A DNA stretch of 63,404 nucleotides, filler included, from Neolecta irregularis DAH-3 (taxonomy: Eukaryota), in the NCBI GenBank assembly GCA_001929475.1. It is 11 parts of 11 records of this genome, joined end to end, with 100 filler letters (N's around TTAATTAATTAA, not from the genome) between each part and the next. Parts side by side here need not be neighbours in the genome. Positions count along the whole stretch, not along the records: positions 54,952 to 60,392 come from LXFE01001098.1; 10 more parts are not named here. One strand, written 5' to 3'. Position 1 is the stretch's first letter; every line of letters starts with the position of its first letter. The notes beneath the pieces were generated by a model, which did not search any database, was not told where the DNA came from, and saw nothing but the letters and a program-made list of their open reading frames with translations. Of the stretch, positions 22,621 to 60,283 are shown piece after piece. Both the position numbers and the translations under genes were made by a program.

Positions 22621-23094
22621 ATGGCATGAATGAGTTGACTATTAATGACTGTTCAGGCTGACACATCCATCATACTCCAGATGAAAGATCATACTACAGC
22701 TGAGTATCACACTGCAGACGATATGTCATACTATAGAATCTATATACTGTACTATATTACAACTATACCACAACTAAAATAGCTATATAAAGCTATCGAG
22801 ATACATCGATACTCTCTTTGAGTTGATTATTTGTGCTGTTGAATCGAATCAGACTCCACCATTCATTCCCTCCACCACCATCCCACATCCCACTCACCAC
22901 CATCTCCTCTGCTCTCATCACTGCAGATCTGCTCGGCTGTCTGTTCTGTATTAGCAGTATTCTCTTATCGTGCTCGGCATCGTGCTCGGGTATCGTCTGC
23001 TACCCCACACTCCGTACTCAACGCCATCCACCACCCAAACATTCTATCATATACCGTACTCTATATGCTATATGCCTGTCTAACCACCAAGACA

Positions 23095-55024: not shown

Positions 55025-56482
55025 TTACCGATTTTTCGGTCTCTTTGAACTCTTTGATTCAGCTTCTGCTGGTCTCTTGAGTGCACTCTGTCCACCGTTC
55101 GTCAAAACTGCCTTTTGCACCCGGATATCATGTTGCAGCTTATCCACTTGTCTCTTCAAATCGAGCATCGTGACTACTGCTTGCTGCAGATTATCGTACA
55201 ATTGGCAGTTTCTCTGGGTCGGCATCGACAGTCGCTGTGAAAAGCCCAGCTCAGTCATACACGCGTTGACTCTTTGCTGGATCGTCTGCCGTAGTGTGGA
55301 GATCTTTTGCGACCGGATGAATACTCCCTGAACAAGTTTCTCGTGATAAGACACCCCGTATCTGTATCCTTGAATTAGCCTGCAGTGTATAATGACATAC
55401 TCTCCGTTTCGCCCAGTTCTCGAACTAGTCTCGTCTGCTGAACAGCAGCCCCCTTATCCGCCAGAATCACAGCCGGCGCCTCGCAGCCTTTACGTTTCCG
55501 ATTTTTCTCCGATGCCGCAAGACTCGCGACTAGAGCACCGATCCCGGCACTCGAAGAAAGGTCTGAACTTGTTCGAGTCGGTTGAGGGGTTTCAAGAAGC
55601 TGGATAATCTCTGCTCGTTCCGCAAGCATCTTTTTCTCCGCAGTTTCCATTCGCTTCATCTCGATATACAGCTGTTCTTCTTCCTGGATTTGCTCCCGCG
55701 TGCGTTGGGACAGTGTAATTAAATACTCTTTCCGAGCTATTTCCTTGCGCTTGTCGAAATTCATCTGCTGCAGCTGGGCCGTCAATTCGGGCGTAGACAC
55801 ACTGGCTCGACTCGAGAGAATCTTGCGGGTTACAGTGTAGTAGCGGTCTTTGAGGTCTTCCATTGACCGTGGCGAGATTTCATAGGCATCAGCAATTACA
55901 ATCCAGCGCAGGTCAAACGAGCTGCAGAGACTGAAGAGATAGTCCGTTTCGTGTTTCGTCCAGCCGGGGTCTAAGGTGGTTACTACACCGTATCTAATTT
56001 CATACCTTGCAAGAGGTTCTCATACTCTTCCTGGGTGTATTCGATGACGGTGACTGCATGTCGTTTCTGTTCCTGAACCGGTGCTATGGCGTCATTCTTC
56101 TATTCCATTCCTTGCGTACCATCCTCTGCCGTAGTCTTCTTGACCCAGTGGAATAGCCCCAGATTATCCGCCCGCGAGAAACTTGCCAGTTTGCAGAGTT
56201 CCCTGTAGATCAGCGACACTTCTCGGCTGGGCCACACCAGGGCGTCACCCTGTGGTTTAGTCGTGGCTTCTCCTTGAACTTGTTCTGGATGATTGCGACA
56301 GGCGGCGTGTTTTCACCCAGCAGATTATACAATTCTCGCGACATGCCATCTGCCCGTCAACACTCTCCAAACAGGCTCGCACCTGGCTTTTTCTCGGCAG
56401 GGAGCTTGAGTCTCCGCGGTGCGGGTGCTGCTGCCGCGTCCTTGGGCAGACTGAGCATATCGCGGATATCGGCACTGGTCAT
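55025..56482 (-). CDS. SWC4: SWR1/NuA4 subunit Swc4/Eaf2 (DMAP1 homolog)
   Basis: MTSADIRDML, GMSRELYNL, SANT WTKHETDYLFSLCSSFDLRWIVIAD, RSMEDLKDRYY, GVFIRS, MPT. Confidence 0.95.
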
Positions 56483-56912
56483 TATAGAGTCAAACGGCAC
56501 TGCGGAGCTTGAAGCAGCCGACCACGTCGCAGTCCATGTTCCGCGCCGAACAACGCATGGATGAGTAGAGAGCAAGCTGCCGCAAGTATTTTATTCCGGC
56601 AGGCTTTGCTTCTTTTGCTATGAATATCTATTCCTGATTTTTATCGAAGTCAGATTTTTTCTGTTCTCTCGTCATCTATACGGCTCCCACCATCCACTAA
56701 CAAAAAGTGCTTCCAACACCTGTGTTTGGCGGAGTGTGTGATCGGCATCATGTCTGCACTTGCAGCCCAACCCAGACAAGCAGGAATCGCAGAAAAACGG
56801 CGGAACGACGGCTCGCGCTACGGGCGCCCAGCAGCGGCCACGCTCTAGACACGCTGGGCAGCGAGAAAAAAAAGCGCTGATCGCTGGTCGCCTGCACCGC
56901 AGTGTTCCAGGG

Positions 56913-56943
56913 CCACGTCAGCACTGACGAACGCCCTATAAAG
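56913..56943 (+). promoter_or_regulatory. UPRE/CRE-like CCACGTCA and TATAAA box upstream of HAC1
   Basis: CCACGTCA (TGACGTGG on the other strand, an XBP1/Hac1-type site) at 56913-56920; TATAAA at ~56937; ATG at 57077. Confidence 0.5.
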
Positions 56944-57076
56944 ACCCCGGCGCCCGCTCCTCGTTTCCTCCAACCACCATCGCCGTGCTGGGTCCGCCGC
57001 TGCTATCCCACATACACTACGCATACACCACACATATATACCGCAAATACCCCCCGTAGCCCCTTTATTTTCACCC

Positions 57077-58182
57077 ATGGCGGCTCCAAGAAGGCCATCG
57101 CAGTCCTCTGTCGCATACAGCGACCATCTAGGCCCCTCTCTCTGGGCCTCTCCGCCTCCTTCTGTGCGCAGCCCCGCCTGTCGCCCTTGTAATCGTGCAC
57201 AGGTAAAGGCTGAGTCGCCCCGCCAGGATCAGTCTGCCGCCTTCTTGGTCTCGCCGCAGGATTTAGACACCAGCGCGGGTTCGCACCTCCACAACGCCCC
57301 CAGAAAACCTCGCAAAAAGGCCCGTACAGCAGAGGAAAAGGCACAGCGGCAACAGGAACGGTGCGTCTTTTCCCAAAACTCGTCTGACTAGACAGTATTC
57401 TGCGTAATAGGCTCGCTGCCCAGACCTCGCGCGAGAGAAAACGGAAATACATCGAGGATCTTGAAGGCATGCGTGATTCACTCCGCTCAGAAAACTCGCA
57501 GCTCGTCAAGCGAGTGCGGTCTCTCGAAGGCGAGAACAAAGAGCTAATGTCACGGTTGGAGAGCATGGCTGGACAGATTGAAGATCTGAAAGCAACCGTA
57601 TCATGCTACGATTCGCCGTATCAAAGGTCGACAGGTTATAGGCCTTTAACACCGCAGGCTCGTTCTCCGCCTCCTTCCCAACCACAATATCTCCCAGTCG
57701 CGTCAGTACAGCATCAACAGCCAATCCAATGGACCACCAGCCAGGCTTATATCCCAGATACAACGACCATACTCAACATGTCTCATCCTGCCGTGATGAG
57801 TGACCAGCAGAGTCTGTTGAGACCGGCTTGTATTTTGCGGATCAGCCCGGTGATCCCGATCTGGCTTCAGTATCTGACGACGATTCAATTTCTGATAATA
57901 ACGATCAAAACTCTCATGACGATAGCTATATGGACAACTTTCTCTGTTATGAACCCGAAAACATCCAGCATTCGGCTTACTTATCAAACTTGTGCGCAGA
58001 CGGCGGTTTTGAGCATCCAGGCTTCCCTTGGACGACTCCCGCGTCGCGATTTGTTTCATAGCTTGGCCGATAATTCTGGATCAAACGGGGGTAAAAGCGC
58101 TAGCCAAAGTTGGTTGAGGCTGTTGCGTGTGTTTCGGTCATGTCTTATATCATCCGACTCGGTGGGTTTTGTGGGCACTTGA
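57077..58182 (+). CDS. HAC1: bZIP unfolded-protein-response transcription factor Hac1/XBP1; unspliced form stops at 58182, IRE1-spliced form at 58061
   Basis: PRKKART.EEK.QR..ER|ILRNRLAAQTSRERKRKY...LE basic region, leucine zipper, HPA motif at the non-conventional intron. Confidence 0.93.
57791..57807 (+). other. Predicted 17-nt IRE1-type non-spliceosomal intron
   Basis: Two hairpins with 7-nt loops CUG|CCGU and CAG|CAGA. Confidence 0.85.
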
Positions 58183-58433
58183 CGAGCTTGTAGGATATAT
58201 ATCTGTTCTTTTTTTGTTATGACTTCGTTACGATCTTTGTTTTTCCGGCTTGTCTTTTTGTTGTGTTTGGTTATCGTCTTCATTCTTTGTTATAAAGTTT
58301 ACGTGGGAGATGGCTTGATGTCTATGTCTCTCGGTTGTATGTACGTCGCCAGGTGCACGGGATTAAATACATATTGTTCACGCCATCTCTGACTTTTAAC
58401 CACTGCTATTGTCCATGGTCTTTGCACTTTAGG

Positions 58434-60283
58434 ATGCCCAGAGAAGAACATAAAAGAGTCAAATGTGATGTCGGAAAAGTCTCAAAGTTGTCCTCCAATG
58501 CTGTTAAAGCATTTAAACTTGGTTCATACAAAACTGCAGCATTGCTGTTCACTCAAGTCTCACACTCTCGGTTACTCTGGCTAATATTGTAGGCAATCGC
58601 ACTCCAAACCGACCTCGATTTTCAGACCAAATTGAAGCTTTACGACCGCAGATCGGCCACCTTTGAGAAACTGGGCGATTTCTTAGCTGCATACAAAGAT
58701 GGGAAAAAGATGATTGAACTAGATCCACAGTGTGCAAAGGTATTGTCTCAGAGAACCTAATTCTTATTCCGAGGGGTATCTCAGAGCCGGCAACGTTGGT
58801 CAATTGGCGAATAAGGATACCAAGGCCTATGAAATTTATCAAATTGCTATCGCCCGTGTACCGGTTAATGATCCCCATTACAAGGTGTGATATACTAAAG
58901 TAGACTCATAATCACCATTTAGATTCTCGAGTCTCAATTGAGAGCTGTTGAAAAGCGCTTGAAAGAGACAAACCTTGTATGTCCAATATCTATACGGGCA
59001 TTGACATCAAGTTTCAATCAACGTGTGACATTACCAAGATCTTACCCTCAGAGATTGCCAATATTGTCTTTACCTACCTTTCATTCAATCAGATAATTTC
59101 CTGTCGTCGCGTCTGCAAGGCCTGGAATTCATATATCACAACTCAACCGCGGCTCTTTCGTGATCTGGATTTTGCTAGCCATGGCCGAAATATCGGTAGA
59201 CAACAAATCCAGAAATGTCTCCAATACAGCAAAAACAAATCCAAGAAATTGCTCGTCGATCTCAGACGACTGAAATCAGACAATGTACTTGACGAACTGG
59301 CAAAGTCATTACGAAGACTCACATCTCTTGCAATCTACAATATACAGGCAACACTCGCAATGACTTTTGCTCGCACAATCACAAGTATAACGTTACATGG
59401 TCCGCCAGTATTAAACATGATTTGGACAGTTTTGAACCAATTCACTGCCCTCGAATCCGCGAAATTTCTAGACTGCGATCCAAAAGTTACGCATATCTCG
59501 AATAGAGAACCGTTCGTGTATCTTCTCAAACACCTTGTTATCGTCGCAAAACAAAACACACCTTCGGCGCTCCCAGAATCTCTGCGAGCCGCAAAAGCAT
59601 ATGCATTTTTCCCGTCGTTGCAAAATCTACATATTTCTGGCTGGCGAGATGCATCAACTGGAATACCCACCGATTATCGGCCCTACGAACAATTGGAATC
59701 TTTGGTCCTGGATAAGGGCGCTATGTCAGAATTGCCGCTTTTAGGACCACGAATAACTTCGTTTTCATTCACGGATCAGTTTCTCGATCAACTCCAGCCT
59801 ACGCATGAGAATTTCCTCGTCCCGCCTTACCTCGAATGTTTGGATATATCGAATTGTAGTAGAATCAATGTTCAAACGTTCAATAAACTTACAGCGTCAT
59901 TGGAAAAGAACTTGCGGTCACTGGTCATGAATTATGTCCAGATACCTGTTTCTGTTATTCTACGAAACTGCTCCTTTCATACTCATCTCCAATATCTCAG
60001 TGTCTCGGGAAACGGAGATTTGTCTGATAACAATTTAAAGACCATAGCTGATACTTTCTCTGAGTTGGTCCAAGTCGACGTCAGCGATTGTTTTAATATC
60101 ACAGGGGTTTCTATTATCTACCTCGCCTATAATCGCAAGGCTACATTACGACGTATTGTAATGAATAATTGTGAACATGTAGGATATGATTCTGTTGAAT
60201 GGGTTCGTGGTAACGGTATTGCTGCTGAATGTAAACTTGCCAAGCCGTTGAAAGGCGGGAAGAAAGTATCTCTTGGATTCTGA
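58434..60283 (+). CDS. TPR/F-box/LRR protein (Pof3/Dia2-like)
   Basis: TPR YDRRSATFEKL..A.KDGKKMIELDP...|GYLRAG; F-box LPSEIANIVFTYL...RRVCKAWN; C-terminal LRRs. Confidence 0.85.

What the first reader, a model, noticed from the sequence alone, without database searches (positions are those of the whole stretch)
57772..58182. HAC1 with a predicted 17-nt IRE1 intron and dual-coded C-terminus
Seen: hairpin 1 ctcatc-[CTGCCGT]-gatgag (57782-57800), hairpin 2 gac-[CAGCAGA]-gtc (57802-57814), and a closing exon-exon stem ctcaaca/tgttgag (57772-57778/57815-57821). Both loops fit the IRE1 CNG|CNGN consensus. Cutting after the third G removes 17 nt (57791-57807) and shifts the frame from a hydrophobic tail (IPIWLQYLTTIQFLIITIKTLMTIAIW, stop 58182) to an acidic tail (HPAESVETGLYFADQPGDPDLASVSDDD..., stop 58061). 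Known: short HAC1/XBP1 introns are usually about 19-26 nt, and S. pombe has no Hac1. Inference: this is an unusually small IRE1 intron; if the host is Taphrinomycotina, it would support loss of Hac1 in fission yeast being lineage-specific.
Basis: partly seen in the sequence, partly recalled or inferred. Interest (0 to 1): 0.88.

Follow-up and report, generated by a model that had tools for sequence, protein, structure and literature searches.

The report
Neolecta HAC1 with 17-nt IRE1 intron
This is the stress-response gene HAC1 of the fungus Neolecta irregularis, carrying what looks like a real but unusually short (17-base) version of the special intron cut by the ER stress sensor IRE1; it is an ordinary system with a record-short intron, and the splicing itself has not yet been seen.

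Summary
The gene is the bZIP factor publicly named hacA of Neolecta irregularis DAH-3, a member of Taphrinomycotina.

Evidence that the site is real:
- A twin-hairpin scanner finds it once on the window's + strand. 100 simulated windows gave none of equal quality.
- A covariance model built only from 32 other fungal HAC1 sites hits 57767-57829 at 40.5 bits, E 3e-9. The loops align exactly, and 3 nt are missing from each arm of hairpin 1. That makes 17 nt instead of the usual 20.

Removing 57791-57807 gives an intact 297-aa frame with an acidic tail.

In RNA contigs of a ~95% identical relative, the only change near the site falls on a free loop position. Divergence jumps tenfold just after the acidic-frame stop.

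Those contigs are unspliced, so splicing remains inferred. They also read through the 41-nt GT-AG intron of the public gene model, which is therefore unsupported.

A second candidate 17-nt intron lies in environmental locus L057.

The parts
57077..57163 (+). HAC1 exon 1a, from the ATG
   Evidence: ATG at 57077. RNA contigs of the relative begin to match at 57076 and run to 57162/3.
57164..57202 (+). Conventional GT..AG intron, 39 nt, in frame. The public protein model translates through it.
   Evidence: All 4 RNA contigs skip it: joint 57162>57202, cut +1. Sequence printed. P0004 reads through it.
57203..57360 (+). Exon 1b, holding the start of the basic region
57361..57395 (+). Conventional GT..AG intron, 35 nt, inside the basic region
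   Evidence: Joint 57359>57395 (cut +1) in all 4 RNA contigs. It restores the conserved basic-region motif seen in alignment A1.
57396..57790 (+). Exon 2 up to the predicted 5' IRE1 cut. Holds the rest of the bZIP (about 57400-57594) and a linker.
   Evidence: Pfam bZIP_1 E 2.4e-11 on residues 2-43 of P0001. 9 of 11 differences in the relative are synonymous.
57772..57821 (+). Whole IRE1 substrate element: 7-bp exon-exon closing stem (57772-57778 with 57815-57821) enclosing two hairpins
   Evidence: R1 hit 57767-57829 at 40.5 bits, E 3e-9. Rfam RF04247 hit at 26.8 bits, below its threshold.
57782..57800 (+). Hairpin 1: 6-bp stem, loop CTGCCGT (57788-57794). Predicted cut after G57790.
   Evidence: It aligns to the 9-bp family stem with 3 nt missing in each arm.
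57802..57814 (+). Hairpin 2: 3-bp stem gac/gtc, loop CAGCAGA (57805-57811). Predicted cut after G57807.
   Evidence: The same 3-bp stem is in all 32 family sequences: G-C in 32, A-U or G-U, C-G in 32. The relative has A>C at 57806, a free loop position.
57791..57807 (+). Predicted non-conventional (IRE1) intron, 17 nt. Removing 57790-57806 gives the same product.
   Evidence: Not yet seen removed in RNA.
57808..58061 (+). Tail of the spliced form: acidic, 17 D+E against 1 K+R, stop at 58059-58061
   Evidence: Divergence in the relative is 1.6% here against 15.6% in the 64 nt after the stop.
57808..58182 (+). Tail of the unspliced form: 124 codons, hydrophobic, stop at 58180-58182. It overlaps the acidic tail in another frame.
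   Evidence: The highest Kyte-Doolittle mean over 19 residues is 1.79. Staying open is only mildly unusual: 11.8% and 12.5% of shuffles for the two halves.
57830..57870 (+). The 41-nt GT..AG 'intron' implied by the public protein model. Not supported.
   Evidence: P0004 jumps from 57829 to 57871. All 4 RNA contigs read straight through 57395-58157 or further, while removing the two real introns. The relative shows no difference in these 41 nt.

Best explanation
This is the HAC1/hacA gene of Neolecta irregularis.

Its mRNA is made with a 17-nt non-conventional intron (57791-57807) that lies between two 7-nt loops, each closed by a short stem. A 7-bp helix between the two exons holds the whole element together.

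Without ER stress, ribosomes read the unspliced frame. That gives a 343-aa bZIP protein with a hydrophobic tail.

Under ER stress, IRE1 is expected to cut after the G at loop position 3 in each hairpin (after 57790 and 57807), and tRNA ligase would join the exons. The 17-nt loss moves the reading frame. The product is a 297-aa bZIP protein with an acidic tail that looks like an activation domain and ends at 58061. This protein would switch on the unfolded-protein response.

The intron is 3 nt shorter than the 20-nt form common in other ascomycetes because hairpin 1 has 6 base pairs instead of 9.

Shown: gene identity, the structure, its homology to other sites, frame integrity, and the constraint on the acidic frame.

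Inferred: the cleavage, the ligation and their dependence on stress.
For: 1. Identity. bZIP_1 E 2.4e-11. 100% match to the public 'Transcriptional activator hacA [Neolecta irregularis DAH-3]'. Nearest relatives include proteins named HAC1 from Komagataella, Batrachochytrium and JGI records.

2. Structure beyond chance. One site on the + strand of the window and none of equal quality in 100 simulated windows.

3. Homology of the RNA element. R1 was built from 32 distinct environmental fungal sites that show covariation: 13 of 22 pairs with changes on both sides, 0 of 500 shuffles as high. R1 hits 57767-57829 at 40.5 bits, E 3e-9, the only significant hit in the window. Both loops are in register and there is a 3-nt gap in each arm of hairpin 1.

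4. Same position in the protein. The cut falls in the conserved H-P-A motif, as in Pezizomycotina and Saitoella.

5. Frame logic. The spliced CDS is 894 nt and the unspliced CDS 1032 nt, both intact.

6. Close relative (RNA contigs about 95% alike, 4 runs). Between 57742 and 57911 the only difference is 57806 A>C, at a free loop position. Divergence is 4 of 254 nt in the acidic-frame tail against 10 of 64 nt just after its stop (Fisher p 3e-5).

7. In the same contigs two conventional introns are removed but the 17 nt are kept, as expected for an intron that needs IRE1.

8. A second candidate 17-nt site in L057: R1 24.6 bits, E 1.3e-4, a 14-bp closing stem of unrelated sequence, and the same frame switch to an open tail.
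Against: - No spliced contig was found in the 4 runs laid. By contrast, 9 of the 80 environmental HAC1 loci from other fungi were already in spliced form. Contigs drop minor variants, so this is weak evidence.
- The Rfam family RF04247 scores 26.8 bits against a threshold of 41. However, 3 of 5 clear environmental sites also fall below 41.
- The twin hairpin is not the minimum-energy fold, and its pair probabilities are 0.18-0.41.
- In the passages I read, no IRE1 intron shorter than 19 nt is on record.
- The acidic tail has no significant similarity to the tails of L057 or of Pezizomycotina (E 0.33, 56 and 0.11).
- The presence of IRE1 and tRNA ligase in this genome could not be checked, because no genome is held.
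Confidence: 0.85

Rival explanations
1. The site is a relic. Neolecta keeps the hairpins by descent but no longer splices HAC1, as reported for Nakaseomyces glabratus, and only the unspliced protein is made.
For: Only unspliced contigs were found in 4 runs. Hairpin 1 is shortened. The fold is not the MFE. The review's Table 1 lists a yeast in which HAC1 exists but is not spliced (PMC13703316, passage read).
Against: Both loops are perfect consensus. The only change in a ~95% identical relative sits at a free loop position. The acidic frame is open for 84 codons, and constraint ends at its stop codon. A relic would decay.
Confidence: 0.08
2. The public gene model is right. A conventional 41-nt GT..AG intron (57830-57870) shifts the frame constitutively, and the hairpins are irrelevant.
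For: The public protein P0004 is built this way. The 41 nt begin GT, end AG and give the same phase as 17 nt.
Against: All 4 RNA contigs read through these 41 nt while removing two real introns of 39 and 35 nt. There are no differences in the 41 nt in the relative, where non-coding sequence nearby differs at 15.6%; the chance of none at that rate is 0.001. The model ignores a site that scores E 3e-9.
Confidence: 0.03
3. IRE1 does cut here, but at other bonds, so the excised piece is not 17 nt.
For: Cut sites are inferred from the consensus only. Loop 1 of the L057 site departs from the consensus, which shows some latitude.
Against: Nine environmental spliced contigs are joined exactly at the loop position-3 G of the homologous sites. 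No other CNGCNGN loop lies nearby. Only a length of 2 mod 3 opens the acidic frame.
Confidence: 0.03
4. The pairings are a chance occurrence in a coding sequence.
For: The CNGCNG hexamer is frequent in the window. The folding z-score is -0.36.
Against: and the site's location at the homologous codons of a Hac1 orthologue.
Confidence: 0.01

Closest known systems
hacA/hac1 of Pezizomycotina (Aspergillus, Trichoderma: 20-nt intron; Neurospora: 23 nt)
   Same: bZIP gene with a conventional intron as well. Two CNGCNGN loops. Hairpin 2 has the same 3-bp gac/gtc stem. The cut lies in the H-P-A codons. There is an exon-exon closing helix. The intron length is 2 mod 3. The unspliced tail is long and hydrophobic and the spliced tail is acidic (PMC13703316 section 7 read; PMC4488935 passages read).
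   Different: Hairpin 1 has 6 rather than 9-10 base pairs, so the intron is 17 rather than 20 nt. None of the 63 environmental loci in which the strict scanner found a site had 17: 55 had 20, 5 had 26, 1 had 23 and 2 had 44.
Candida albicans HAC1 (19-nt intron)
   Same: A very short IRE1 intron in an ascomycete. It is the shortest length named in the passages I read (PMC2606855).
   Different: Two nt longer. I did not see its sequence, so no structural comparison was made.
Metazoan XBP1 (26-nt intron)
   Same: Twin hairpins and a frame switch. The unspliced protein has a hydrophobic stretch. That this stretch brings the mRNA to the ER membrane is recalled from the XBP1 literature, not from any call.
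   Different: A longer intron and a different phylum. No sequence comparison was done here.
Schizosaccharomyces pombe Ire1 without HAC1
   Same: Same subphylum, Taphrinomycotina (PMC13703316 passage).
   Different: S. pombe has no HAC1 and uses Ire1 only for mRNA decay (passages). Neolecta and Saitoella keep a Hac1 orthologue.
Rfam RF04247 (bZIP non-canonical Hac1/Xbp1 intron)
   Same: The same three-helix consensus. The window aligns end to end, model positions 1-72.
   Different: Its score of 26.8 is below the threshold of 41, because of gaps in hairpin 1 and in the spacer.

Membership tests
HAC1/XBP1-type mRNA with an IRE1-cleaved non-conventional intron | Encodes a bZIP transcription factor orthologous to Hac1/HacA/XBP1 | tested here: met
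   Pfam bZIP_1 at 44 bits against a cut-off of 27.6. Public name hacA. Relatives named HAC1.
HAC1/XBP1-type mRNA with an IRE1-cleaved non-conventional intron | Two 7-nt loops of consensus CNGCNGN, each closed by a stem, downstream of the bZIP | tested here: met
   Loops at 57788-57794 and 57805-57811, with stems of 6 and 3 bp.
HAC1/XBP1-type mRNA with an IRE1-cleaved non-conventional intron | A helix that pairs the two exons around the hairpins | tested here: met
   7 bp, 57772-57778 with 57815-57821. Pair probability 0.41. The homologous helix covaries in the family, with 10 of 10 pairs changed on both sides.
HAC1/XBP1-type mRNA with an IRE1-cleaved non-conventional intron | Excision changes the reading frame to an open frame that encodes a different C-terminus | tested here: met
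   17 nt is 2 mod 3. The 297-aa frame is intact. Constraint ends at its stop codon.
HAC1/XBP1-type mRNA with an IRE1-cleaved non-conventional intron | The intron is seen removed in RNA, in dependence on ER stress and IRE1 | tested here: inconclusive
   Contigs of 4 RNA runs of a ~95% identical relative all keep the 17 nt. Contigs cannot show minor forms, and no stress condition was available.
HAC1/XBP1-type mRNA with an IRE1-cleaved non-conventional intron | IRE1 and an RNA ligase (Trl1) are present in the same genome | not testable with these tools
   No genome is held for this window.
Rfam RF04247 (bZIP) | Score at or above the curated gathering threshold of 41 bits | tested here: not met
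   26.8 bits, E 0.026 in 1.8 kb. For calibration, 20-nt sites score 47.8-50.3, while clear 26-nt and 23-nt sites score 32.4-40.
Short-intron class (19-26 nt) of fungal, animal and plant HAC1/XBP1 | Intron length within the reported range | tested here: not met
   17 nt, against 19, 20, 23 and 26 nt in PMC2606855, PMC4488935 and PMC13703316.

The most novel reading that the evidence does not exclude
Seventeen nucleotides is a working IRE1 intron and the shortest known. It occurs in at least two separate fungal lineages: Neolecta, and the unnamed fungus of locus L057. In both it arose the same way, by loss of 3 base pairs from hairpin 1. If so, the enzyme pair IRE1 and ligase tolerates hairpins set closer together than any studied so far. 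In addition, the hydrophobic tail of the unspliced protein, also seen in Saitoella, L057 and Pezizomycotina, would act like the hydrophobic region of animal XBP1u to bring the mRNA to the ER. That would make this targeting device ancestral to fungi and animals.
Probability: 0.2. Interest if true: 0.6.

Novelty: new member of a known kind. Interest (0 to 1): 0.4.

Why it matters
- It corrects a public gene model. The 41-nt intron is unsupported, a 39-nt intron was missed, and the true switch is non-conventional.
- It places a Hac1 orthologue with an intact IRE1 site in two classes of Taphrinomycotina (Neolectomycetes and Saitoellomycetes). The loss of HAC1 in fission yeast therefore happened inside that subphylum, not at its base.
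- If the splicing is confirmed, the lower limit of IRE1 intron length falls from 19 to 17 nt. That limit is a useful boundary for models of how the two cut sites are presented and how the exons are held for ligation.
- None of this changes how the pathway is understood.

Tried and rejected
- **Minimum-energy folding as a test.** The twin hairpin is not the MFE here, nor in any of 32 family members. I dropped it as a criterion.
- **Rfam at its threshold.** The hit is below threshold. I calibrated this and replaced it with a family-specific model.
- **Search for spliced RNA.** Four RNA runs were laid and showed only the unspliced form. Contigs cannot show absence.
- **Metagenome scan with the Neolecta protein alone.** 142 pattern matches, none a relative.
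- **Acidic tail against the protein collection** (longer proteins): only the Neolecta protein itself. Proteins of near or shorter length were not searched.
- **Acidic tail against the tails of L057, P0075 and P0036:** not significant.
- **Unspliced tail alone against Saitoella and L057:** E 17 and 11. The apparent tail alignment is only the extension of the bZIP match. No sequence conservation of the hydrophobic tail is shown, only shared character.
- **Openness of the unspliced frame:** 11.8% and 12.5% of shuffles stay open in the two halves, so the evidence for selection is only mild.
- **Synteny between L057 and the window:** none beyond HAC1.
- **Taxon of L057:** uninformative by the protein atlas, and no names in its cluster.
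- **Rfam on the 17 loci without a scanner hit:** nothing. Nine of them proved to be spliced transcripts.
- **Literature, searches that found nothing.** Neolecta with HAC1: 0 papers. 17-nt intron terms with Ire1: 0 papers. Hac1 with Pneumocystis, Saitoella, Taphrina or Protomyces: none of the 20 listed of 141 papers holds 'hac1'. Neolecta with 'unfolded protein response': 1 paper, listing only, which appears unrelated.
- **Literature, papers not available or irrelevant.** Hooks and Griffiths-Jones 2011 (PMC3225973), the main survey of these introns, is not held. It and the supplements of the Neolecta genome paper may bear on whether a 17-nt case or this gene was noted before. Two papers read by passages held nothing relevant.

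Full report
**What is there.**
Reading 56400-58800 confirms every coordinate of the finding:
- a 7-bp helix, 57772-57778 with 57815-57821;
- hairpin 1, 57782-57800, with a 6-bp stem and loop CTGCCGT;
- hairpin 2, 57802-57814, with a 3-bp stem and loop CAGCAGA.

Both loops fit CNGCNGN. Cutting after the third loop base removes 57791-57807, which is 17 nt. The unspliced frame runs on to a stop at 58180-58182. The frame reached by the shift is open to 58059-58061.

**The gene.**
The product carries a bZIP domain (PF00170, E 2.4e-11). It is 100% identical, where the two overlap, to the public protein 'Transcriptional activator hacA [Neolecta irregularis DAH-3]'. Neolecta is a member of Taphrinomycotina.

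A full HMMER search gave 925 relatives at E up to 0.001.
- The best is an unnamed-function protein of Saitoella complicata, also Taphrinomycotina.
- Others are Hac1 orthologues of Lipomyces, Komagataella (named HAC1), Mortierella-like fungi and chytrids.
- Around the site the proteins share an H-P-A motif.
- No other Taphrinomycotina genus was named among the rows I looked up. That is not evidence of absence.

**Gene model.**
RNA contigs from four root metatranscriptome runs (X1, X2, X3, X8) belong to a relative that differs at about 4-5% of positions. Each run has a contig of 1091-1325 nt covering the gene.
- They remove two conventional GT..AG introns, 57164-57202 (39 nt) and 57361-57395 (35 nt).
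- They then run unbroken from 57395 to 58157 or beyond.
- The public protein translates through the first intron. It reaches the acidic frame by skipping 57830-57870, a 41-nt GT..AG stretch.
- The contigs read straight through those 41 nt, so that intron is unsupported.

With the two real introns and the 17 nt removed, the CDS is 894 nt (297 aa). With the 17 nt kept it is 1032 nt (343 aa). Both are intact.

**Is the structure more than chance?**
The hexamer alone is not: 267 in the window against 159 expected.

A scanner for two such loops, each closed by at least 3 pairs and 12-32 nt apart, finds one site on the + strand (this one) and one weaker site on the - strand. 100 simulated windows gave a mean of 0.07 sites, and none with a closing helix of 7 or a stem of 6.

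Thermodynamics does not help. The proposed fold is -13.0 kcal/mol against an MFE of -16.1, with a z-score of -0.36. The canonical fold is also not the MFE in any of 32 homologous sites.

**Homology of the RNA element.**
A metagenome scan with an alignment of Hac1 proteins returned 80 loci.

The scanner found a twin-hairpin site in 63 of them, with these loop spacings:

| Spacing | Loci |
|---|---|
| 20 nt | 55 |
| 26 nt | 5 |
| 23 nt | 1 |
| 44 nt | 2 |

None had 17 nt. The other 17 loci break down as follows:

| Class | Loci |
|---|---|
| Transcripts already joined exactly at the predicted bonds | 9 |
| Cut off by the contig end | 1 |
| L057 | 1 |
| Nothing found | 6 |

The 32 distinct sites with spacing up to 30 nt were aligned. 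The three-helix structure covaries: 90.8% of cells are paired, 13 of 22 pairs have changes on both sides, and 0 of 500 shuffles reach this.

A covariance model was built from these 32 sites, without Neolecta or L057. Over 68.7 kb it gives the following:
- It hits the window once with significance, at 57767-57829 (40.5 bits, E 3e-9).
- The only other window match has E 1.1.
- The alignment puts both loops in register and shows 3 nt missing from each arm of hairpin 1.

That is exactly the difference between 20 and 17 nt. Hairpin 2, with its 3-bp gac/gtc stem, matches the family.

Rfam's own family RF04247 also aligns end to end but scores 26.8 bits against a threshold of 41. In a calibration, 20-nt sites scored 47.8-50.3, while clear 26-nt and 23-nt sites scored 32.4-40. 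Sub-threshold scores are therefore usual for length variants.

**Evidence from the close relative.**
Within the interior that all four contigs cover, the listed differences are these:
- 11 fall in 364 nt upstream of the site, and 9 of them are synonymous.
- One falls inside the element, 57806 A>C. It sits on the free second position of loop 2.
- 4 fall in the 254 nt of the acidic-frame tail, two synonymous in each frame.
- 10 fall in the 64 nt just after the acidic-frame stop.

The last contrast is significant: 1.6% against 15.6%, Fisher p 3e-5. Constraint thus ends where the shifted frame ends, not where the unspliced frame ends.

The tool lists only differences away from the ends of contig pieces, and it withheld 10 less-supported rows. 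This count therefore rests on its listing rules.

**The two tails.**
- The spliced tail has 17 acidic and 1 basic residue. It matches no Pfam family and no other tail significantly.
- The unspliced tail is 124 codons long and has a membrane-like segment, with a Kyte-Doolittle mean of 1.79 over 19 residues.
- Saitoella, L057 and Pezizomycotina also have hydrophobic unspliced tails. The Neolecta tail alone is not significantly similar to them.
- The frame staying open is only mildly unusual.
- A review notes that the unspliced tail is long and conserved in Aspergillus and may have a function (PMC13703316, section 7).

**A second 17-nt candidate.**
L057 is a 25.8-kb environmental contig of an unnamed fungus. 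It has the bZIP most like Neolecta's (51% identity) and a motif like Saitoella's that is one residue shorter.

Its site (2822-2882; R1 24.6 bits, E 1.3e-4) has these features:
- a 14-bp closing helix of unrelated sequence;
- the same 3-nt gaps in hairpin 1;
- 17 nt between the cut positions;
- a shift into an open 51-codon frame.

Its first loop has C where the consensus has G at position 6, and hairpin 2 has only 2 pairs. It is therefore a weaker case.

**Comparison with what is known.**
The passages I read give intron lengths of:
- 252 nt in S. cerevisiae;
- 26 nt in mammals;
- 23 nt in C. elegans, Neurospora and Myceliophthora;
- 20 nt in Aspergillus, Trichoderma and Trichophyton;
- 19 nt in C. 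albicans.

These come from PMC2606855, PMC4488935 and PMC13703316.

S. pombe lacks HAC1 and uses Ire1 for mRNA decay only. My searches found no paper joining Neolecta with HAC1, and none joining a 17-nt intron with Ire1. The main survey, Hooks and Griffiths-Jones 2011, is not held, so I cannot say that it lists no such case.

**Verdict.**
This is an orthologue of a textbook system that differs only by a 3-bp shorter hairpin.

Its value has three parts:
- a corrected gene model;
- a Hac1 site in two early-branching classes of Taphrinomycotina;
- a probable new lower limit for IRE1 intron length.

My scores are interest 0.4 and confidence 0.85.

Noticed in passing
window 57164-57202: An in-frame 39-nt GT..AG intron is removed in all four RNA contigs of the relative. 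The public protein model translates through it, so that model carries 13 extra residues.
   Followed up: partly
L057 2822-2882: An unnamed environmental fungus has a second candidate 17-nt IRE1 intron, with a 14-bp closing helix. Loop 1 has C instead of G at position 6, and hairpin 2 has only 2 pairs. The organism could not be placed.
   Followed up: partly
L009, L011, L024, L044, L047, L050, L060, L069, L067: Nine of the 80 environmental HAC1 loci are transcripts already joined exactly at the predicted IRE1 bonds. Assembled metatranscriptome contigs can therefore carry the spliced form.
   Followed up: partly
L077 539-631 and L080 about 603-654: Twin consensus loops lie 44 nt apart, with 4-bp stems (Rfam RF04247 at 23.4 bits for L077). 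This may be a longer-intron lineage of HAC1-like genes.
   Followed up: no
alignment A3 (32 environmental sites): The canonical twin-hairpin fold is never within 1 kcal of the minimum-energy fold (mean -19.5 against -27.0 kcal/mol). A competing pairing of the conserved TGACAC with GTGTCA seems to exist. Whether it has a role, for example after cleavage, was not examined.
   Followed up: no
window 22687-22740, minus strand: A weak look-alike of the twin-loop element: scanner spacing 15, stems 5 and 3, closing 3; R1 at 11.1 bits, E 1.1. It is most likely chance.
   Followed up: partly
window 57076-58377, runs X1, X2, X3, X8: A fungus about 95% identical to N. irregularis at this gene is transcriptionally active in four root metatranscriptome runs. 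Its 5' leader upstream of 57076 and its 3' UTR differ from the window.
   Followed up: partly
whole window: The hexamer CNGCNG is enriched: 267 matches against 159 expected, and none of 100 shuffles reaches that count. The cause was not examined. Possibilities are codon usage or CAG/CTG-rich coding.
   Followed up: no
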